Assembly: GCA_016208975.1 (NCBI GenBank)
Contig: JACQXA010000002.1
Span: forward strand, 74,848-138,847
Reading direction: 5' to 3'
DNA length: 64,000 nt
DNA from: Nitrospinota bacterium
Lineage (GTDB): Bacteria > Nitrospinota_A > UBA7883 > JACRLM01
The notes beneath the pieces are model-generated. The model was not told the DNA's origin, ran no database searches, and worked only from the letters and a program-made list of their open reading frames with translations. Positions 4,133 through 23,494 of this stretch are shown here, piece after piece. A program made the translations under genes and the position numbers. Each line of letters starts with the position of its first letter. Within the stretch, counting starts at the first letter, position 1.

Positions 4133-5569
4133 ATGGACAACCACCGGATTCGCAAGACAAAGATTATCTGCACCCTCGGCCCCGCCTCCTCCTCCCTCGA
4201 AATGATCGTAAAGCTTGCCCATGCCGGGATGAACGTGGCCAGGCTGAATTTCTCCCACGGGACCCATGAATATCACAAGCTTTCCATAGCGGCCATCAGG
4301 CAGGCCAGCGCCCAGACGGGAAAACGCATCGGCATCCTGCAAGACCTGGGCGGGCCCAAGATAAGGCTGGGGGAATTGCGGACGCCCCAGATAATCCTAA
4401 AACCGGGACAACCGGTAACGCTTACAACCGGAGAAACCGCCGAGGGAAACGAAATTCCCGTCAATTACGCATACCTGGCCGAAGATGTCTCCCCCGGTTC
4501 CAAAATCCTGCTGGCCGACGGGCTGGTGGAACTGGCGTTGGAGCGCATAGAAGGGGGCAAGCTTAAGTGCGTCACCATAACCGGCGGGATACTTACCTCC
4601 CACAAGGGGGTGAACCTGCCGCTGTGCAACCTCAGGACACCGGCGTTCACCAAGAAGGACCAGGCGGACCTGGAGTTCGGCCTGATGAATGGCGTGGATT
4701 TTGTGGCCCTCTCCTTCGTGCGCGGCGTGGCGGATCTGCTCCCCGTAAAGGAGGCCATCTCCCGCTCACGAAGCGCCAAACCCATGTTGCTGGCCAAGAT
4801 AGAGAAACCCCAGGCCGTGGAAAGCCTCAACGAGATATTGCCAATGGTGGACGGGATCATGGTGGCCCGGGGAGACCTTGGGGTTGAAACCCCTTTCGAA
4901 AGGCTTCCCATAATCCAGAAAAGCGTTATCACAGCCGCCCGCAGGGCCGGAAAGCCGGTTATCACCGCCACGCAGATGTTACGCTCCATGATAGACAGCC
5001 CCAGGCCCACCCGCGCCGAAGCCACCGACACGGCCAACGCCATCCTCGACGGGACAGATGCGCTGATGCTGTCCGAGGAGACCGCCGCCGGAGATTACCC
5101 CGTGGAGGCGGTAACCACTTTGGACATGATAGCCAGGGCAACGGAGGAGAGTTACGATTCGGCCAAATACATGGACGAGCCGGAATCGGCGTTCGTGCAG
5201 GATACCGAGGCGGCCATGAGCCGCGCCGCGTGCGGCCTGGCGCTTAAATTGGGCGCGGTCTGTCTGGCCACATCCACCCTTACCGGGCACACCGCGCGGA
5301 TGATCTCCCGCTTCAGGCCTTCCATGCCCATCATAGGGTTTACATGCGACGAAGACACATTCAGAAAGCTCAATCTTTCATGGGGCGTCATACCCGCGCT
5401 GATTCCCCAGACACAGGATTTGGGGACGCTTTGCCGCACCGCTGAGCGGTTCGCCAGGGATAACGGCCTGGGCGCGGCCGGGGACAGGATAATAGTTACC
5501 GCCGGTTACCCGCTTTGGGTTTCCGGCTCCACCAACATTGTGGAGGTGATAACCATAAACGGTTCATGA
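4133..5569 (+). CDS. pyk: Pyruvate kinase
   Basis: RKTKIICTLGPAS, ARLNFSHG, AKIEK, MVARGDLGVE, ATQMLRSM, PTRAEATD. Confidence 0.96.
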   Translation: MDNHRIRKTKIICTLGPASSSLEMIVKLAHAGMNVARLNFSHGTHEYHKLSIAAIRQASAQTGKRIGILQDLGGPKIRLGELRTPQIILKPGQPVTLTTGETAEGNEIPVNYAYLAEDVSPGSKILLADGLVELALERIEGGKLKCVTITGGILTSHKGVNLPLCNLRTPAFTKKDQADLEFGLMNGVDFVALSFVRGVADLLPVKEAISRSRSAKPMLLAKIEKPQAVESLNEILPMVDGIMVARGDLGVETPFERLPIIQKSVITAARRAGKPVITATQMLRSMIDSPRPTRAEATDTANAILDGTDALMLSEETAAGDYPVEAVTTLDMIARATEESYDSAKYMDEPESAFVQDTEAAMSRAACGLALKLGAVCLATSTLTGHTARMISRFRPSMPIIGFTCDEDTFRKLNLSWGVIPALIPQTQDLGTLCRTAERFARDNGLGAAGDRIIVTAGYPLWVSGSTNIVEVITINGS

Positions 5570-17963: not shown

Positions 17964-18677
17964 TTAATAACGGGTGGTAATGTCTGTAAGCCAAGCTGGC
18001 GACGCATTAGTCAGAATGCTTTCAATATGTTTATCGGCTCCGGATAACACGGCCACTCCGGTGGCAAGTAGCGTAATGCCCAACGCGGGTTTTAGCGTTC
18101 CTCCAGCGGAAGCAAGTTTGTTACGCAACCCAATCGCATAACGCCCCGCGTATGAAAGGAAAACAAGGGGAGTAACCGCGCCAAGGGCGAAAAATGCCAT
18201 CACGGCAGAGGCATTTATCAAGGATTCATGGCTCATGGCAAGCCCGATGGCCGCGCCGAGCGTGGGCCCGGCGCAAGGCGCCCATAGCGCCCCCAATAAA
18301 ACCCCAAGCGCAACCTGCCCCCCAATTCCGCTGGCGTTGAATGCGCCCGCATAGTTTTTCACACCAGCCAGCAACGGCTCGGCCATCTTCATAAACCTTA
18401 AATGCATTGCGCCGGCCAGCATGAAAGCTCCAGCCAGAAACAGAATGGCCGCCGCTCCTGCCCTGATTGTTCCCTGGCCGATTCCAATCAACTGGCCAGC
18501 GACCGGCAAAACCATTCCCATGGCTGTAAAAGAGATTACCAGACCACCCATCACCGCCAAGGGGCCAAGCCTGCCCTCTCGCATGGCCCCGGCCAATATC
18601 ACTGGAGCCAGCGGTAACACGCATGGCGACAGTATTGACAAAACGCCAGCCGCATATCCGAGAATTATGGAAAGCAT
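17964..18677 (-). CDS. ccdA: CcdA/DsbD-transmembrane-domain thiol transfer protein
   Basis: LSPCVLPL and WAPCAGPTL conserved cysteines; about 6 TM; ATG overlaps the upstream TGA. Confidence 0.88.
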   Translation of the reverse strand: MLSIILGYAAGVLSILSPCVLPLAPVILAGAMREGRLGPLAVMGGLVISFTAMGMVLPVAGQLIGIGQGTIRAGAAAILFLAGAFMLAGAMHLRFMKMAEPLLAGVKNYAGAFNASGIGGQVALGVLLGALWAPCAGPTLGAAIGLAMSHESLINASAVMAFFALGAVTPLVFLSYAGRYAIGLRNKLASAGGTLKPALGITLLATGVAVLSGADKHIESILTNASPAWLTDITTRY

Positions 18678-19084
18678 CAAATTCCCTTTTCAAACAGCGC
18701 GCGGATTTTCCCCGGATCCGTTTCACCCACGGAACGCCCCGCTTCCTTGTTCCCCTTAAACACTATCAGGGTGCTTTGATACGATATTTTCAGAAGTTTT
18801 AAGGCCTCCTTATCCGTGTCAAAGTTGACCTTGAACACAATTGCGGTGGCGAACTTGCCGTCTTTCGAAAGATTTTCGATTACAGGCTCCTGTTTTTTGC
18901 AGGTTGGGCACCAATCGGCATGGGCGCCCACAATGATTGTAACGCCGCTTTTTTGGGCCTCAGCGAATTTTTTGCCGTCGAATGGCATTATCTCCGCCGC
19001 GCCCGCTGTTTGGCCGGCCGATATTGAAAGCGCCACCATAAGGGGGACGGCCCTGGCAAAAAACCTCAATGAACCTCTTCCCAT
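18677..19084 (-). CDS. Exported thioredoxin-family protein
   Basis: Signal peptide-like N-terminus; WCPTC active site; GGAGG RBS before ATG 19084. Confidence 0.88.
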   Translation of the reverse strand: MGRGSLRFFARAVPLMVALSISAGQTAGAAEIMPFDGKKFAEAQKSGVTIIVGAHADWCPTCKKQEPVIENLSKDGKFATAIVFKVNFDTDKEALKLLKISYQSTLIVFKGNKEAGRSVGETDPGKIRALFEKGI

Positions 19085-19110
19085 TTGTTCCCTCCGCATA
19101 ATCAGTAGCG

Positions 19111-19233
19111 TTATACAAAACTCCATCCAATAAAGGCCACAATGGCAAGCCCTGCCATCACCAGCATCGCCTTCTCATGCTTGCATAGGCCTTTTTTGGC
19201 CTTGCACCCTTCCATATTGCACATAATAGACAT
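19111..19233 (-). CDS. Small Cys-rich membrane peptide (40 aa), absent from the ORF track
   Basis: MSIMCNMEGCKAKKGLCKHEKAMLVMAGLAIVAFIGWSFV; GAGG RBS about 10 nt upstream; collinear with trx-ccdA. Confidence 0.6.
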   Translation of the reverse strand: MSIMCNMEGCKAKKGLCKHEKAMLVMAGLAIVAFIGWSFV

Positions 19234-19347
19234 GGGTCATCCGCCTCTATAATTGGGATTATTTAATCCATTCCTGGTTGAGCCTTATATAGGCTCTTAT
19301 AGTTTAGTGATAACAGGTGGATGAATATTACAAACGGCTAGCGGCCA

Positions 19348-20490
19348 TTACTGAAGCTCTATGGACCCGCTCCACAATTTGTAGGACGATTTGCCTGTTT
19401 CCGTAAGGGCTTGTGATATGAGCCCCATTGTCGGAGCGCTGGCGTTTTCCACCGTGGATTTGAAAAACCCATGGTAGAAATAATCCGGATACACCGATAT
19501 TGAAAATACAATCCGCGATGCGGAGCCAATATGGCCGTCGTATATGTATTCCCTTTTTTCCCCTGGCGCCAGACGGGTGTCATATTCCTCCACGCTGATG
19601 TCCAGGCTCACCTTGCGCCCAATCTTATATTCCCTTTCGGATCCTGGGATCGTTTTCCCGGAAGAATCCTCCAAATGAGCCCTGATAATCACCAGCGGGG
19701 TTACATAAGTTGGGAAATAATGCCCCGCGCCGGAGTTTGTAACCGCAAGCGCCGCCTTTTTCCCATCCCACACCTGTTGTATATCCAGGGCGCTTAAAGT
19801 CATCCGCTTATCGTGAATCCCCTTAAAAAGATGCTCCCTGTTTGGCATATGGCAATTCTGGCACTGGACGCCATCCTTAGCCCAATTGCTTTTTTGCCAT
19901 TCCGCGTAGGTATTAACAAGCAATTTGCCGTTTAGTTTATAACCATCATTCAGCTGGTGACACGCGGCGCAGAATTCCGATTTCCCGTAAAAATCCCGGG
20001 CGTAATAACCATTGTGGCCTCGCAAATCACTTTGCGCGGTTTCCAGTTTCCCATTTCGCGGCGGCCCGTAAACTTTTCCGTATCGCACATGGCATACGGC
20101 GCAACTGACGCCTGCATGTTTAAGGCGCCCATCATAGCCCCGGTTTGGCGCATAACCCCCGCCGCTTGCGCTTTTGAACTCTTGTTGCTCCGCCAGCGGA
20201 GCGTGGCAGAAATAGCATGAATTGGCGGTGTCCGGCTGGTTTTCGGGATCGAGTTGACCAAGAAGCCCCGGACCTGCGGCCCTTGCGTGTAATGACTCTT
20301 TCCAGGGGTCAAGCTGGGCCATATGGCAAGAGCCGCAGTCTTCCGGGTAAAGCGAATATATACTTGCCCCGCCACGAGCCGGGCGGCGCCAGTGGGAGTT
20401 AAGGGAAGAGCCCCCCTCCGCCGAAAAAGGAAGGGAGCCCCCTATACCCGCAAATAAGACGAGTGGAACAATCCAGCCTATTTTGCGCAA
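19348..20490 (-). CDS. Pentaheme cytochrome c (c554/c552-like domain plus C-terminal beta domain)
   Basis: Five CxxCH motifs: CGSCH, CYFCH, CAVCH, CAACH, CQNCH; signal/anchor RKIGWIVPLVLFAG; TTG start at 20490 is inferred. Confidence 0.85.
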   Translation of the reverse strand: MRKIGWIVPLVLFAGIGGSLPFSAEGGSSLNSHWRRPARGGASIYSLYPEDCGSCHMAQLDPWKESLHARAAGPGLLGQLDPENQPDTANSCYFCHAPLAEQQEFKSASGGGYAPNRGYDGRLKHAGVSCAVCHVRYGKVYGPPRNGKLETAQSDLRGHNGYYARDFYGKSEFCAACHQLNDGYKLNGKLLVNTYAEWQKSNWAKDGVQCQNCHMPNREHLFKGIHDKRMTLSALDIQQVWDGKKAALAVTNSGAGHYFPTYVTPLVIIRAHLEDSSGKTIPGSEREYKIGRKVSLDISVEEYDTRLAPGEKREYIYDGHIGSASRIVFSISVYPDYFYHGFFKSTVENASAPTMGLISQALTETGKSSYKLWSGSIELQ

Positions 20491-20735
20491 GGATTCTTGG
20501 CGCAGGGATTCTTGGCGCACGGGTTCTTGTCTCCCTGCTTTTTGTCACTGCTTTTCTTCTTTTTAGTGTCGCAAGGATTTGCCGCGCAGGGATTCTTTGT
20601 CTTGTTCGCGTCAGCCGCCGCGCAAGGATTCTTGGCGCAGGGGTTTTTATCCGCGGCCATGGCCGGAGACACACCGGCGAACCCAATTCCCGTGGCGATT
20701 ACCGTAGCAATAAGCAATTTCGTGATCTTCGTCAT
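20478..20735 (-). CDS. Secreted NPC-repeat peptide (7 x NPC)
   Basis: Sec signal ending AMA; KNPCA repeats from about 15-bp tandem DNA units; GGGGG RBS-like tract. Confidence 0.8.
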   Translation of the reverse strand: MTKITKLLIATVIATGIGFAGVSPAMAADKNPCAKNPCAAADANKTKNPCAANPCDTKKKKSSDKKQGDKNPCAKNPCAKNPCAK

Positions 20736-20809
20736 AACAAGTCCCCCTTTTTTGGATTGATTGACAAGTGAATAACACTACAACCTGATTCCCTCCAGGT
20801 CATCGCGCC

Positions 20810-21280
20810 TCAGCGCCTTTTGTAAGAAGCCGTATATTCCCGGTAATACGCCGCCATTGCCGTCATTTCCACCGAGTTGGGATCTAACGGGTTTGCGGCC
20901 ATGGGATTTAACATGCAATAGTTGACCATCTGGTCAAGCGTCAGAATGTCCCCAGTCATTTTTACGTGGTGCGGCCACCCTTTAACCTTGTCGAGGTTCA
21001 GGTTCTCATGGTCCGCATGGCATGACATGCACGATAGGCCGCTGGTCCCCAGTGCTTCGGAGTTCCAAAGCTTCTTCCCCATGGACACGAGCTTTTCGTA
21101 ATCCGTGATCCTCTCCAGTCGAATGTGTTTCCTGTCATCCGATGACACCGCGGCTGGGGCGCATGGGTTGGGGGCGCTTCTTGAAGCGCCGCAGGGATTC
21201 TTGTTTTCTGCGGCCGCATTATTAGCGGCCCCGATACAAGCCGCCACTGTAATCAGGATTACCGTCAACGTTTTTACCAT
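20810..21280 (-). CDS. Monoheme cytochrome c, SoxA/TsdA-like (probable His/Cys ligation), with N-terminal NPC repeats
   Basis: Signal peptide; KNPC and PNPC; CMSCH; QMVNYCMLNPM resembles the SoxA/TsdA distal-Cys segment. Confidence 0.75.
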   Translation of the reverse strand: MVKTLTVILITVAACIGAANNAAAENKNPCGASRSAPNPCAPAAVSSDDRKHIRLERITDYEKLVSMGKKLWNSEALGTSGLSCMSCHADHENLNLDKVKGWPHHVKMTGDILTLDQMVNYCMLNPMAANPLDPNSVEMTAMAAYYREYTASYKRR

Positions 21281-21504
21281 TCCCGCCTCGTGTCTATAAT
21301 GTGGTGGTTATCTGAATAACCGGCATTGATAACGCCGGGCAGGCTCGGATGCCCTTTATGCGCGCCTTCCGGCGTAATCCCCGGCCTTCAGCGTCATCTT
21401 TATTGCCCCATATCCTTTTAACTCAAAGAATAATTTATTATACGCATTATGAGGTTTTGTCAATTCATTCACCCAAAATGCGCCACGGCCCTCTTTTTGG
21501 CGTT

Positions 21505-21744
21505 TCACGTTTTCCCTAACAGCCTGGCGATAATCCTGTCCTCCAGGCTTTTGCTTTCCGCGTCCGTGAGGGATGGCCCGTCAGAGAAATATTTCCTTAC
21601 GGCGCCGCGCAGGGCTCGCATGTGCCCCCAATATCTGGAACAGGGGCCGCACATGAAAAGATGCGCCATCTGTTTCAACTTACCCATATGGGAAAGCTCT
21701 TTCCCGGAGCCAAGGTTTTCGACAACTTCCTTGCACGACATCAT
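21505..21744 (-). CDS. Zinc-finger (zf-HC2/ZAS) anti-sigma factor
   Basis: MSCKEV...HLFMCGPC (Hx3Cx2C); directly follows the ECF gene. Confidence 0.85.
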   Translation of the reverse strand: MMSCKEVVENLGSGKELSHMGKLKQMAHLFMCGPCSRYWGHMRALRGAVRKYFSDGPSLTDAESKSLEDRIIARLLGKT

Positions 21745-21749
21745 GACTT

Positions 21750-22343
21750 TTAGCTCTTCCAGCCCGATTTTACCTCGAGGCACTCCCGCAACCTGTTTCG
21801 CGCCCTGTAAAGTAGCACTCCAAGATTAGTGACGGTAATCCCCAGGGTATTACAGATTTCTTCACTCTCCAGGTCGTCCACTTCCTTCAGCGTGAACGCG
21901 GCCCGCTGGGTTAATGGAAGCTTTTCGAGACACGCATGGAACTTTTCCGATGTCTCCGCGGCTAAAACAAATTCCTCGGGGCTGGCGGGCGGCCTCACCC
22001 AATGGCCCCGTAAATCGAACCTCGCCGCCACAACATCGTCCACGGGGTCGTGTTTCCGCAGTTTCGCCAGCTCCCGGCACTTCTCAAGCCCCTTCCTGTA
22101 AAGAATGGCGAATATAAACGTGCGGACGCTGGAACGCCCCTCAAAGGCGGGTACCTTCTCATAGAACGTGATCCAGGTGTCCTGAACCATTTCCTTGGCG
22201 GTTTCCGGGTCGAAACCCATCCCCACCGCCGCGTTATGCAAGTGCCTGGTGTAAGCCCGCACCAGCCGCTCAATGGAGGCCGCGTCTTGCGCCACCACTT
22301 TTTTAATGAACCCGGCCGAGCTTACATCCCACGCTTCCGCCAT
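21750..22343 (-). CDS. ECF sigma factor (TIGR02943/ECF13-like)
   Basis: FEGRSSVRT, FDLRGHW..P, EICNTLGI..NLGVLLYRARNRLRECLE. Confidence 0.88.
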   Translation of the reverse strand: MAEAWDVSSAGFIKKVVAQDAASIERLVRAYTRHLHNAAVGMGFDPETAKEMVQDTWITFYEKVPAFEGRSSVRTFIFAILYRKGLEKCRELAKLRKHDPVDDVVAARFDLRGHWVRPPASPEEFVLAAETSEKFHACLEKLPLTQRAAFTLKEVDDLESEEICNTLGITVTNLGVLLYRARNRLRECLEVKSGWKS

Positions 22344-22416
22344 GTCCCCCGTCACACATCCTCTTGGCATTTGCCGTTATGGCGCGCCCTATTTCTAATG
22401 AGAACGCCGCCTGTCC

Positions 22417-22908
22417 TTAAGACAACCCCGGCTCCAGCTTTCCGTTGAGGCCGATATATTTACCCGTCCGCAGATGCTTTTCCAGCCCGTCAACAACCTG
22501 GCCCAGCATCTTCCTCATCATCGGTCTCATCATCACCGGCCCCATGATCTTCCCGAATATCCCGCCTTTCATTTCGAAATGGACAGACAAGGTGAGCAGG
22601 GTCTTGCCCTGCCCCGCGTCCTTCAAATCGAAATGGACCACCCCCTCCTTTAGGGGCATGCTTCCGTCCCTTATTGCTACGGTCATGGATTCGCCCTCTT
22701 TCCATCCGGTCACCTCTTCATCCACATGCCCCTGGCCGTTATAGAACTCGCAAGTCCTCTTGGCGCCAACGCCGCATTTAACGGCGCTATGTAACGTGGA
22801 TTTCTCCACCATGGGGTGAAACACATGAACGTTGCCGAAATCGGAAAGCTTTTGCCACACTTCGCTCCGGGGCGCGTCCACCAGTTTCTCAAGCTTGAAC
22901 TCCGTCAT
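22417..22908 (-). CDS. SRPBCC/polyketide cyclase-like protein
   Basis: VDAPRSEVWQKLSDF...GVGAKRTC START-like pattern. Confidence 0.8.
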   Translation of the reverse strand: MTEFKLEKLVDAPRSEVWQKLSDFGNVHVFHPMVEKSTLHSAVKCGVGAKRTCEFYNGQGHVDEEVTGWKEGESMTVAIRDGSMPLKEGVVHFDLKDAGQGKTLLTLSVHFEMKGGIFGKIMGPVMMRPMMRKMLGQVVDGLEKHLRTGKYIGLNGKLEPGLS

Positions 22909-22954: not shown

Positions 22955-23374
22955 CTAGTTGCGGCAATATTTCTCCAAACCCAGAAGCGAAGCCCCCAGG
23001 GCCTCCCTTATCATCTGGCGCATTCCCTCGGCCACGTCCGCCCCGGCGGCGTAAGCCGACCACCAGGTAACCTGGGTGGCCCCGCCGTCCACGGCCTTCA
23101 CCTCTATCGTTCCTTCGTAACCTTCCACCGGCAAACCGCTGGTGATCCGGTATTTGAACCGTTTATGGCTCTCGTCTATCTCGTCCACAACTTCGTTCAG
23201 TTTTGTCCCGTCGCCCATTTCGCAGAACCTTTTGGAGCCGGGCCCAGCCCCCTCCACCCTGCAAGAAGTGATCATCGGCGACCATTTATCCACACCCCCC
23301 ACGGAAGCGATAACCTTCCACACCTTCTCGGCCGGAACCGAAAGCTTAACCATCACGCCCACTATCTCTTTCAT
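22955..23374 (-). CDS. SRPBCC/polyketide cyclase-like protein
   Basis: VPAEKVWKVI...WSPMITSC...GPGSKRFC. Confidence 0.82.
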   Translation of the reverse strand: MKEIVGVMVKLSVPAEKVWKVIASVGGVDKWSPMITSCRVEGAGPGSKRFCEMGDGTKLNEVVDEIDESHKRFKYRITSGLPVEGYEGTIEVKAVDGGATQVTWWSAYAAGADVAEGMRQMIREALGASLLGLEKYCRN

Positions 23375-23494
23375 TTCCCTCTCCTCTTTTTAAGGGTAAT
23401 TCGACCTGTTTAGCCAGAGTCTCCCCTTGTTAGTGGCGGGAGCCCCTGAAATCTTACATAGCAAAACGCACGTTTTGTTTTATGGCCCAAAAAA

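What the first reader, a model, noticed from the sequence alone, without database searches (positions are those of the whole stretch)
17964..22343. Candidate undescribed periplasmic thiol/oxidant-defence system: ECF-ZAS, NPC-repeat proteins, two cytochromes c, Trx and CcdA
Seen: one same-strand run of ECF sigma, Hx3Cx2C anti-sigma, NPC-repeat monoheme cytochrome, secreted 7xNPC peptide, pentaheme cytochrome, 40-aa Cys peptide, exported WCPTC thioredoxin and CcdA. Known: ECF13-type sigma/ZAS pairs control msrAB in Neisseria; CcdA/Trx deliver electrons to the periplasm; the Met-rich peptide MrpX with MsrP is a sacrificial HOCl scavenger. Inference: a cysteine-based analogue in which NPC repeats trap oxidants, sulfane sulfur or soft metals and are recycled by Trx/CcdA or the hemes. 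I know of no characterised system with this composition, but could not search.
Basis: partly seen in the sequence, partly recalled or inferred. Interest (0 to 1): 0.8.

Follow-up and report, generated by a model that had tools for sequence, protein, structure and literature searches.

The report
Sigma-controlled periplasmic poly-cysteine redox module
An uncultured groundwater bacterium has a stress-sigma-controlled gene cluster for secreted Asn-Pro-Cys repeat "thiol arms", two cytochromes related to sulfur enzymes and a thioredoxin/CcdA reductant line; the set recurs in several phyla, I found no published description, and its substrate is still unknown.

Summary
All eight genes are present on the minus strand at the stated coordinates.

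- **Conserved core.** It is an Asn-Pro-Cys (NPC) repeat cytochrome followed directly by a pentaheme cytochrome, found in about 105 species genomes of five phyla. The monoheme domain is SoxA-like, and its invariant Cys122 aligns with the SoxA heme ligand Cys114. The pentaheme is a relative of the polysulfide reductase MccSep/ExtKL. It lacks the heme-ligating Cys and has Tyr in place of selenocysteine.
- **Trx/CcdA link.** Thioredoxin and CcdA recur beside NPC genes in three different gene orders (L102, L106/L103, L086).
- **Regulation.** The motif TGTAAnAT-N14-yCACTAA occurs three times in the window against 0.05 expected. The sites lie before the sigma operon, inside the sigma gene, and before the 40-aa peptide-trx-ccdA operon. 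L102 has the same three sites.
- **Neighbouring genes.** Zetaproteobacteria place arsenite methylation genes next to the core, under a related motif. Other lineages place rhodaneses there, three of them selenoproteins.

Best reading: a stress-induced periplasmic poly-thiol carrier or buffer for thiophilic species, recycled by heme and thioredoxin routes. The proposed oxidant-scavenger role is neither shown nor excluded.

The parts
23430..23458 (-). Candidate ECF promoter P1 (TGTAAGAT-N14-CCACTAA), about 55 nt upstream of the first SRPBCC gene. It would drive SRPBCC-SRPBCC-sigma-anti-sigma.
   Evidence: three motif hits in the 64-kb window against 0.05 in dinucleotide shuffles. L102 has the same kind of site upstream of its sigma operon.
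22955..23374 (-). SRPBCC/Polyketide_cyc2 protein, 139 aa, first gene of the putative sigma operon.
   Evidence: PF10604, 83.9 bits. Not conserved with the module; L102 has a histidine kinase in this position.
22417..22908 (-). Second SRPBCC/Polyketide_cyc2 protein, 163 aa.
   Evidence: PF10604, 64.3 bits.
21750..22370 (-). ECF sigma factor, 206 aa.
   Evidence: Sigma70_r2 and r4_2; TIGR02937 72.5 bits against a cutoff of 42.9. The best subfamily model, TIGR02943, scores 110 bits, below its cutoff of 162.
21826..21854 (-). Candidate internal promoter P2 (TGTAATAC-N14-TCACTAA) inside the sigma region-4 coding sequence, about 80 nt upstream of the anti-sigma start.
   Evidence: The same position is hit in L080 (5891) and L102 (3485). 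It overlaps conserved codons (C-N...T-N), so coding constraint may contribute.
21505..21783 (-). Soluble zinc-type (ZAS) anti-sigma factor. The likely start is ATG 21744, giving 79 aa.
   Evidence: C5, H29, C33 and C36 are invariant in five homologues, and I saw no transmembrane segment. NF052368 scores 27 bits, below its cutoff of 50.
21437..21463 (-). Sigma-70-like promoter candidate upstream of the cytochrome gene: TTGACA, 15 nt, TATAAT.
   Evidence: Read from the sequence. The scan tool missed it because it requires a 16-18 nt spacer.
20810..21280 (-). Monoheme SoxA-type cytochrome c with an N-terminal tail carrying two NPC units. Candidate heme ligands are His88 and Cys122. It has a signal peptide, with a possible VAAC lipobox.
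   Evidence: PF21342; the profile matches SoxA 1h31 at E 8e-12, and Cys122 aligns with Cys114. C84, C87, H88 and C122 are invariant.
20478..20735 (-). Secreted Lys-rich peptide with seven NPC repeats, 85-aa precursor.
   Evidence: Syntenic homologues are in L001, L009, L102, L106, L103 and about 34 of 80 genome loci.
19348..20520 (-). Soluble pentaheme cytochrome, a Tyr-type relative of MccSep/ExtKL. Its start overlaps the NPC gene by 43 nt.
   Evidence: PDB 9wt8, E 5.9e-17. There is a one-residue deletion at the position of Cys239, and Sec325 aligns with the invariant Tyr272. Tyr in 70 of 73 homologues. ExtKL model 54.6 bits against a cutoff of 250.
19304..19332 (-). Candidate ECF promoter P3 (TGTAATAT-N14-TCACTAA), about 70 nt upstream of the 40-aa peptide gene.
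   Evidence: L102 has an equivalent site at 5358, upstream of its own 40-aa peptide-trx-ccdA genes.
19111..19233 (-). 40-aa mini-protein: an N-terminal Cys3His segment (C5, C10, C17, H19) followed by one transmembrane helix.
   Evidence: homologues in L081, L085 and L102 share M-x-[IL]-M-C-x4-C-K-x3-G-[LM]-C-x-H-E-K. A cytoplasmic N-terminus is inferred from the Lys-rich segment.
18677..19126 (-). Exported classic thioredoxin with a WCPTC active site. The likely start is ATG 19084.
   Evidence: PF00085; the best PDB matches are classic thioredoxins (5zpv, E 1.8e-23).
17964..18680 (-). CcdA/DsbD-type membrane thiol-electron transporter with Cys in SPCVLP and WAPCAGP.
   Evidence: PF02683 and PF13386; a widespread subfamily of about 238 aa. 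Its closest relatives in L102, L103 and L106 sit beside NPC genes.

Best explanation
The cluster encodes a stress-induced periplasmic poly-thiol module.

**Induction (inferred).** A soluble zinc-type anti-sigma factor of the RsrA type holds the ECF sigma factor until a thiol-reactive agent in the cytoplasm inactivates it.

**Transcription (motif seen; function inferred).** The free sigma factor transcribes from TGTAAnAT-N14-yCACTAA promoters. One drives its own operon. The cytochrome, NPC peptide and pentaheme genes may follow by read-through. Another drives the 40-aa peptide-thioredoxin-CcdA operon.

**Capture (inferred).** The NPC thiolates sit on a free Lys-rich peptide and on the flexible tail of the SoxA-type cytochrome. 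In the periplasm they capture thiophilic species as S-X adducts or disulfides. Candidates are sulfane sulfur or polysulfide, selenite, As(III), or oxidants.

**Recycling (inferred).** Two reductant lines resolve the adducts:
1. The pentaheme cytochrome acts as an electron wire to the His/Cys heme of the NPC cytochrome. There, S-S/S-X bonds are cleaved or formed, as in MccSep and SoxAX.
2. In this lineage, thioredoxin is also recharged by CcdA from the cytoplasm.

**Shown here:** the gene content, the homologies, the aligned ligand Cys, the loss of Cys/Sec in the pentaheme, the co-occurrence, and the promoter motif. Substrate, direction of electron flow and sigma dependence are inferred.
For: - The NPC cytochrome is SoxA-like, with the heme-ligand Cys conserved.
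- NPC arrays are the rule in this cytochrome family: 99 of the 146 newly returned representatives, with up to 30 NPC units in those printed.
- The pentaheme is an MccSep homologue without its own Cys/Sec. MccSep cleaves S-S bonds at a His/Cys heme (bioRxiv 10.1101/2025.11.18.688581).
- The cytochrome-pentaheme pair is conserved in Zetaproteobacteria, Nitrospinota, Nitrospirae and Thermodesulfobacteriota/Deltaproteobacteria. Tectomicrobia carry the cytochrome.
- Trx/CcdA lie beside NPC genes in three gene orders: the window and L102, L106/L103, and L086.
- The promoter motif occurs three times in the window against 0.05 expected, with the same layout in L102.
- A related motif precedes NPC genes in about 25 zetaproteobacterial loci, and precedes ArsS in L026, L039 and L044.
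- The ZAS motif is complete and the anti-sigma factors look soluble.
- Sulfur-transfer genes are neighbours: rhodanese in five loci, three of them selenoproteins, and DsrE plus a glutaredoxin-like protein in L069.
Against: - There is no experiment and no RNA data. The window comes from a groundwater metagenome.
- The window's cytochrome gene has its own sigma-70-like promoter and no ECF motif directly upstream.
- An ECF/ZAS pair lies next to the module in only about 12 of roughly 94 loci. Trx/CcdA do so in only a few.
- The internal site P2 overlaps conserved codons.
- The neighbouring genes point to different substrates in different lineages: arsenic in some, sulfur or selenium in others.
- Most carriers look like aerobes or microaerophiles, in which polysulfide chemistry is not obviously needed.
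- Both AlphaFold models were too poor to place the ligands.
Confidence: 0.5

Rival explanations
1. Sox-like oxidative sulfur pathway. The NPC arms act as SoxY-type carrier cysteines. The SoxA-like heme oxidatively couples thiosulfate or sulfide to them. The pentaheme passes the electrons to the respiratory chain. Trx/CcdA play the SoxW/SoxV role of reactivating wrongly oxidised carriers.
For: - SoxA homology with the ligand Cys conserved.
- A four-way parallel with SoxAX, SoxY, SoxW and SoxV; the roles of SoxV and SoxW are from my own knowledge.
- Rhodanese and DsrE genes are neighbours.
- The MccSep authors themselves relate its chemistry to the reverse of TsdA/SoxAX.
Against: - No SoxB, SoxX, SoxZ or SoxCD gene appeared among the Pfam-annotated or ORF-listed neighbours, though I ran no targeted search for them.
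- The match is to the N-terminal heme-1 domain of SoxA, which is not the catalytic heme (my own knowledge).
- Regulation by a stress-type sigma/anti-sigma pair suits defence better than energy metabolism.
Confidence: 0.2
2. Arsenite or soft-metal(loid) sink. NPC arrays chelate As(III), or Sb, Hg or Cu(I), in the periplasm in the manner of a metallothionein. The module belongs to an arsenic regulon, and the cytochromes and Trx only keep the thiols reduced.
For: - ArsS+ArsM, with a peroxiredoxin-like protein, an ArsN1-like acetyltransferase or a MIP channel, lie directly upstream in 19 zetaproteobacterial loci (29 of the 65 have at least 3 kb upstream) and in Nitrospirae L080.
- The same promoter motif precedes ArsS in L026, L039 and L044.
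- A mer operon lies 5 kb away in L003.
- The zetaproteobacterial linkers are rich in Met and His.
Against: - No ars genes are in this 64-kb window.
- The non-zetaproteobacterial neighbours are sulfur or selenium transfer genes.
- A simple chelator would not need a His/Cys heme fused to it in most family members.
Confidence: 0.15
3. The NPC peptide is a sacrificial scavenger of HOCl or H2O2, a cysteine analogue of MrpX, repaired by Trx/CcdA.
For: - RsrA-like soluble ZAS anti-sigma factors typically sense oxidative thiol stress (my own knowledge), and the motif here is complete.
- Trx/CcdA sit behind the ECF-type motif.
- Peroxiredoxin-like genes occur in several loci.
Against: - No MsrP/MsrQ-like genes are in the cluster.
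- The conserved partners are cytochromes from sulfur-enzyme lineages, not peroxidases.
- Trx/CcdA are absent from most loci.
Confidence: 0.1
4. Ordinary explanation. The two cytochromes are a respiratory electron-transfer pair. Trx/CcdA are their dedicated maturation factors, keeping the apocytochrome CxxCH reduced. The NPC repeats are merely flexible linkers.
For: - CcdA with a periplasmic thioredoxin-like protein is the standard reductant line for cytochrome c maturation (my own knowledge).
- WCPTC is the active-site motif I recall for E. coli CcmG.
- The same Trx-CcdA cassette occurs without NPC genes in the L104/L107/L108 arrangement.
Against: - The free NPC peptide has no heme motif yet is conserved, and it directly follows Trx-CcdA in L103 and L106.
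- Cys is invariant within the repeats while the linkers vary.
- The thioredoxin is of the classic type, not the ResA/CcmG type.
- Stress-type regulation argues against a housekeeping role.
Confidence: 0.1

Closest known systems
SoxAX / SoxYZ / SoxV-SoxW thiosulfate-oxidising system (SoxA structures 1h31, 2c1d)
   Same: - A His/Cys-ligated c-type heme domain: profile E 8e-12, with Cys122 aligned to Cys114.
- Cysteines on flexible arms as the likely reaction partners.
- A CcdA-type membrane protein and a periplasmic thioredoxin in the same cluster.
   Different: - A single heme domain, with no SoxX, SoxB, SoxZ or SoxCD seen among the neighbours.
- The carrier is a disordered multi-Cys NPC array, free or fused to the cytochrome, not one Cys on a folded SoxYZ protein.
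- The partner is a pentaheme cytochrome.
- Regulation is by an ECF/ZAS pair.
MccSep (ExtKL, GSU2937-2936) pentaheme polysulfide/selenite reductase, PDB 9wt8 (bioRxiv 10.1101/2025.11.18.688581)
   Same: - Five CxxCH motifs in the same order and an all-β C-terminal domain: profile E 5.9e-17 over residues 39-333.
- Periplasmic location.
- A rhodanese gene next to it in some loci (the ExtH parallel is from my own knowledge).
   Different: - The heme-2 ligand Cys239 is deleted.
- Sec325 is replaced by an invariant Tyr.
- There is an additional invariant His236.
- It scores far below the NCBIfam cutoff: 54.6 against 250.
- It is always paired with a separate His/Cys monoheme cytochrome.
SigR-RsrA type ECF sigma / soluble ZAS anti-sigma thiol-stress switches
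   Same: A short soluble anti-sigma factor with a C-x23-H-x3-C-x2-C zinc motif, and a probably autoregulated operon.
   Different: - The promoter motif is TGTAAnAT-N14-yCACTAA.
- The putative regulon is periplasmic, rather than cytoplasmic thioredoxin or mycothiol genes.
- The ECF group was not determined.
MrpX-MsrPQ sacrificial methionine-rich peptide system
   Same: A small secreted repeat peptide encoded next to a periplasmic repair or recycling system that draws on cellular electrons.
   Different: It is based on Cys, not Met. It has no molybdoenzyme MsrP and no heme-b MsrQ. The recyclers are c-type cytochromes and Trx/CcdA. No link to oxidants was shown.

Membership tests
SoxA/TsdA cytochrome c domain (PF21342) | Domain model matched above the curated cutoff | tested here: met
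   49.2 bits against a cutoff of 27.
SoxA/TsdA cytochrome c domain (PF21342) | CxxCH together with a Cys axial heme ligand at the family position | tested here: met
   Cys122, in LDQMVNYC, aligns with Cys114 of 1h31 (residues counted from the printed alignment). Its role as the heme-1 ligand is from my own knowledge. Cys122 is invariant in 19 sequences. Actual ligation was not measured.
Sox thiosulfate-oxidising system | SoxX partner, SoxYZ carrier with a GGCGG arm, SoxB hydrolase | tested here: not met
   None was seen in the cluster or among the Pfam-annotated or ORF-listed neighbours, though I ran no targeted search for them. The SoxA equivalog TIGR04484 scores 44 bits against a cutoff of 110.
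MccSep/ExtKL family | Five conserved CxxCH motifs | tested here: met
MccSep/ExtKL family | Heme-2 distal ligand Cys239 | tested here: not met
   Cys239 falls in a one-residue insertion relative to this family. 67 of 73 homologues read NGK.L..T with no Cys.
MccSep/ExtKL family | Sec or Cys at position 325 | tested here: not met
   position 325 aligns with Tyr272. The motif GH.[FL]P[TS]Y.TP is present in 70 of 73 homologues.
MccSep/ExtKL family | NCBIfam NF040886 equivalog score | tested here: not met
   54.6 bits against a cutoff of 250.
ECF sigma factor | Sigma-2 and sigma-4 domains only; TIGR02937 above its cutoff | tested here: met
ZAS (zinc-binding) anti-sigma factor | H-x3-C-x2-C together with an upstream Cys; encoded directly after the sigma gene | tested here: met
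   Model scores are below their cutoffs: NF052368 scores 27 against 50, and there is no Pfam hit for the window protein.
   No ECF-group classifier was available. The best NCBIfam subfamily, TIGR02943, is below its cutoff.
CcdA/DsbD transmembrane family | PF02683 above its cutoff and two membrane-embedded Cys | tested here: met
   31.5 against 27.1. The motifs SPCVLP and WAPCAGP are in the sequence.
Thioredoxin | PF00085 match, WCxxC active site, export signal | tested here: met
   WCPTC is present. The signal peptide was judged by eye from MGRGSLRFFARAVPLMVALSISAGQTAGAAE.
MrpX-MsrPQ type scavenger system | MsrP molybdoenzyme and MsrQ next to a Met-rich peptide | tested here: not met
   No such genes lie between 15000 and 26000. 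The peptide contains no Met repeats.

The most novel reading that the evidence does not exclude
NPC arrays are genetically encoded poly-thiol arms whose cysteines serve in trans as the missing catalytic residues of a split MccSep-type enzyme. Under this reading the Tyr-type pentaheme supplies electrons and a substrate pocket. The NPC thiolates, or a Sec-rhodanese in some lineages, replace Cys239 and Sec325. The SoxA-type His/Cys heme loads or unloads S, Se or As adducts. Together they would form a previously unrecognised, sigma-controlled periplasmic system that captures and reductively detoxifies thiophilic chalcogens and metalloids in aerobic bacteria.
Probability: 0.15. Interest if true: 0.9.

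Novelty: new variant of a known kind. Interest (0 to 1): 0.72.

Why it matters
- **A new periplasmic thiol biochemistry.** If the reading holds, this is a repeat peptide of reactive cysteines with two dedicated recycling routes, one heme-based and one thioredoxin-based.
- **Where it occurs.** The carriers matter in iron, nitrogen and groundwater cycles: Zetaproteobacteria, Nitrospinota and Nitrospirae.
- **A role for an unexplained family.** It gives a function to a widespread uncharacterised cytochrome family, with 226 clusters at E ≤ 1e-10.
- **A link to MccSep.** It shows a branch of the newly described MccSep polysulfide reductase that has lost both catalytic residues.
- **A link to arsenic.** It ties arsenic-methylation genes to a periplasmic module through a shared promoter motif.
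- **It is testable.** The sigma/anti-sigma pair and its clear promoter motif make the inducing signal directly testable.

Tried and rejected
- **Whole-genome tools were closed.** The fetch from genomes and the genome search did not run. I could not map the regulon genome-wide or search the rest of the genome for sox, ars or ccm genes.
- **No expression data.** Only DNA runs from a groundwater metagenome hold the region.
- **AlphaFold2 models were too poor to use.** The pentaheme gave pLDDT 55 and the NPC cytochrome 56. I ran no fold search and made no ligand-geometry claim.
- **The NPC peptide search found little.** It returned only two proteins, as expected for a low-complexity query. One is an orphan NPC gene beside split AhpC-like ORFs.
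- **Rfam** found nothing between 17500 and 24200.
- **The generic promoter/terminator scan** gave no more hits than shuffled sequence.
- **A RiPP reading** (MNIO/bufferin-like) was considered and dropped. No maturase gene lies in or next to any locus examined.
- **Rhodanese as arsenate reductase** was considered and dropped. The L086 active-site loop is CRSAWR, of the CX4R sulfurtransferase type.
- **The strict zetaproteobacterial motif** (…CGAC) has no hit upstream of the window's genes. The variant of the window's clade ends in CACTAA.
- **Literature searches** for NPC repeats, Asn-Pro-Cys, and Zetaproteobacteria with ArsM found no description.

Full report
**Observation.**
- Family searches confirm an ECF sigma factor, a thioredoxin with WCPTC, a DsbD_TM/CcdA protein and two c-type cytochromes.
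- The 85-aa ORF has a signal peptide. Its 58-aa mature part holds seven Asn-Pro-Cys units and 14 Lys.
- The repeat is kept at the protein level. Asn and Pro codons vary between units, and only three 15-nt units register as a DNA tandem repeat.
- The anti-sigma factor most likely starts at ATG 21744. Its four zinc-ligand positions (C-x23-H-x3-C-x2-C) are invariant in five homologues from two sigma clades. All five are 80-100 aa, and I saw no membrane segment, so they resemble soluble RsrA-type switches.

**The monoheme cytochrome.** It matches the Pfam SoxA/TsdA cytochrome domain at 49 bits against a cutoff of 27.
- A profile of 19 family members hits SoxA of Rhodovulum (1h31) at E 8e-12. The invariant Cys122 falls on Cys114, which I recall as the thiolate ligand of SoxA heme 1. 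It is therefore very probably a His/Cys-ligated heme.
- Its homologues almost all carry NPC arrays on an N-terminal tail and sometimes on a C-terminal tail.
- A search of 1.84 billion cluster representatives found 226 clusters at E ≤ 1e-10. Of the 146 newly returned representatives among the best 150, 99 carry at least two NPC units. Those printed carry up to 30.

**The pentaheme cytochrome.** A 15-member profile hits the recently solved MccSep (ExtKL of Geobacter, PDB 9wt8) at E 5.9e-17.
- MccSep is a periplasmic polysulfide and selenite reductase. Its heme 2 is ligated by His122 and Cys239, and Sec325 is the nucleophile (bioRxiv 10.1101/2025.11.18.688581).
- In the printed alignment the chain numbering matches the paper. 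Cys239 falls in a one-residue insertion that this family lacks, and Sec325 aligns with Tyr272.
- Across 73 distinct pentahemes found next to NPC cytochromes, 70 read GH.[FL]P[TS]Y.TP, 67 read NGK.L..T with no Cys, and 72 carry an additional His at GI-H-D.
- The family is therefore a distinct Tyr-type branch that has lost both catalytic residues. It scores 54.6 bits against the 250-bit cutoff of the ExtKL model. I do not file it as MccSep.

**Co-occurrence.** A scan of one genome per species found 105 genomes encoding the cytochrome. They are Zetaproteobacteria, Nitrospinota, Nitrospirae, Tectomicrobia and Thermodesulfobacteriota/Deltaproteobacteria.
- The pentaheme follows directly in 59 of 65 zetaproteobacterial loci and in 15 of 29 other loci, of which 23 have at least 1.5 kb downstream.
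- A free secreted NPC peptide is present in about 34 of 80 loci.
- An ECF/ZAS pair lies next to the module in about a dozen loci.

Thioredoxin and CcdA are rare in that survey, appearing only in L086. Starting from the window's CcdA instead, its closest relatives give a different picture:
- L102 has sigma, anti-sigma, NPC peptide, pentaheme, 40-aa peptide, Trx(WCPTC) and CcdA. This is the window's order without the cytochrome.
- L106 has a divergent pentaheme, then Trx-CcdA-NPC peptide-NPC cytochrome.
- L103 has Trx-CcdA followed by a 3×NPC peptide.
- L086 has a ResA-like redoxin and a DsbD_TM protein upstream of the cytochrome, the pentaheme and a rhodanese.

Three different gene orders argue for a functional link between this reductant line and NPC proteins. 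The same cassette also occurs without NPC genes in a GST-MarR-GCS2-PAN arrangement. It therefore looks like a recruitable module.

The 40-aa peptide is a real gene. L081, L085 and L102 encode homologues with the same Cys3His spacing and a transmembrane helix.

**Regulation.**
- *Zetaproteobacteria.* TGTAA[GT]AA-N14-CGAC lies 70-100 nt upstream of the first NPC gene. A matrix built from these sites finds it before NPC genes in about 25 loci. It also lies 66-120 nt upstream of ArsS in L026, L039 and L044.
- *The window's sigma clade.* The motif is TGTAAnAT-N14-yCACTAA. In the window it occurs three times, all on the module strand within 4.2 kb, against 0.05 expected in shuffles.
  - P1 at 23458 lies before two SRPBCC genes that lead into the sigma gene.
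  - P2 at 21854 lies inside the 3' end of the sigma gene, upstream of the anti-sigma gene.
  - P3 at 19332 lies before the 40-aa peptide-trx-ccdA genes.
- *L102.* It shows the same three positions although its intergenic DNA has diverged.
- *L080.* It has the motif before its NPC peptide and its NPC cytochrome.
- *The window's cytochrome gene.* It lacks the motif. It has TTGACA-15-TATAAT at 21463-21437. It may also be read through from P1 or P2, since no terminator-like site lies in the 224-nt gap.

That the sigma factor recognises this motif is an inference.

**Neighbouring genes elsewhere.**
- Zetaproteobacteria place ArsS (449 bits against a cutoff of 300) and ArsM (361 against 263) directly upstream. 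A peroxiredoxin-like protein, a MIP channel or an ArsN1-like acetyltransferase often accompanies them. Nitrospirae L080 does the same.
- Deltaproteobacterial and Nitrospirae groundwater genomes place a rhodanese after the pentaheme. In L078, L083 and L088 this gene has an in-frame TGA within YCTU, and the frame continues through the rest of the domain. It matches the rhodanese-related (seleno)protein model above its cutoff for L083 and L088, the two I scanned.
- L069 has DsrE and a glutaredoxin-like gene.
- The window itself has no ars genes.

**Interpretation.** The two cytochromes descend from enzymes that form or cleave S-S/S-Se bonds at a thiolate-ligated heme. The pentaheme has given up its own thiolate and selenolate. 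The repeat cysteines sit on flexible, basic arms. Reductant lines and a thiol-type cytoplasmic switch are attached.

The most economical reading is a stress-induced periplasmic poly-thiol carrier or buffer. Its adducts or disulfides would be resolved by the heme pair and, in this lineage, also by thioredoxin and CcdA. The substrate is open. Sulfane sulfur or selenium fits the enzyme ancestry and the rhodaneses. Arsenite fits the zetaproteobacterial regulon. A plain cytochrome-maturation role for Trx/CcdA is a real rival, but it does not explain the heme-less NPC peptides placed directly after Trx-CcdA.

**Novelty and limits.**
- Literature searches found no description of NPC-repeat proteins.
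- Earlier notes of this scan describe the same family in other genomes with a Sox analogy. I treated them as leads.
- The genome is probably an uncultured Nitrospinota. The closest cytochrome homologue, at 67% identity, is in a groundwater Nitrospinota genome, and earlier notes agree.

Noticed in passing
L078:2041-2439, L083:11835-12233, L088:2403-2804: The gene after the pentaheme is a secreted rhodanese with an in-frame TGA in the active-site loop (YCTU[P/D]DE.TSARVA). Read as Sec, L083 and L088 match NCBIfam NF041203, rhodanese-related (seleno)protein, at 126 and 135 bits against a cutoff of 115; L078 shows the same read-through but was not scanned. The pentaheme next to it has lost its own Sec.
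   Followed up: partly
window 20478-20520: The 5' end of the pentaheme ORF overlaps the last NPC repeats in another frame, so KNPCAKNPCAK also reads RQESLRQESLRK. The same overlap and N-terminal sequence occur in L001 and L102, which suggests translational coupling.
   Followed up: partly
window 21437-21463 (minus strand): Perfect TTGACA and TATAAT hexamers, separated by 15 nt, lie in the 224-nt gap upstream of the NPC cytochrome gene. This is the one gene block in the cluster without the ECF-type motif directly upstream.
   Followed up: no
window 19280-19296: A perfect 6-bp-stem palindrome (GAGCCTTATATAGGCTC) lies between candidate promoter P3 and the start of the 40-aa peptide gene, in what would be the 5' untranslated region.
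   Followed up: no
L001:8078-9079, L023:6830-7822, L035:7013-7996, L072, L078: A MoaA-type radical SAM gene (Radical_SAM + Mob_synth_C in L001) lies within 6 kb of the module in five non-zetaproteobacterial loci, at different positions and on different strands.
   Followed up: no
L104, L107, L108: Close homologues of the window's Trx-CcdA pair sit in a conserved GST-MarR-GCS2-PAN domain-Trx-CcdA arrangement without NPC genes. The secreted Cys-rich PAN protein may be their client there.
   Followed up: no
L098:2902-3384: A GNAT whose best match is the arsinothricin-resistance acetyltransferase ArsN1 (113 bits, below its cutoff of 170) lies between ArsM and the NPC peptide gene.
   Followed up: partly
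L011:5188-6048 and L091:11617-12468: A second type of SAM methyltransferase lies downstream of the module in two Nitrospirae-like loci. Its top matches are ArsM-like but well below cutoff, and they score about the same as UbiE-type models.
   Followed up: partly
L103:2450-2660 and L106:4462-4625: The regions upstream of the Trx genes share AAAGGTTTCACC and CGTAACCT blocks. This may be a different regulatory site in that lineage, or simply close relatedness.
   Followed up: no
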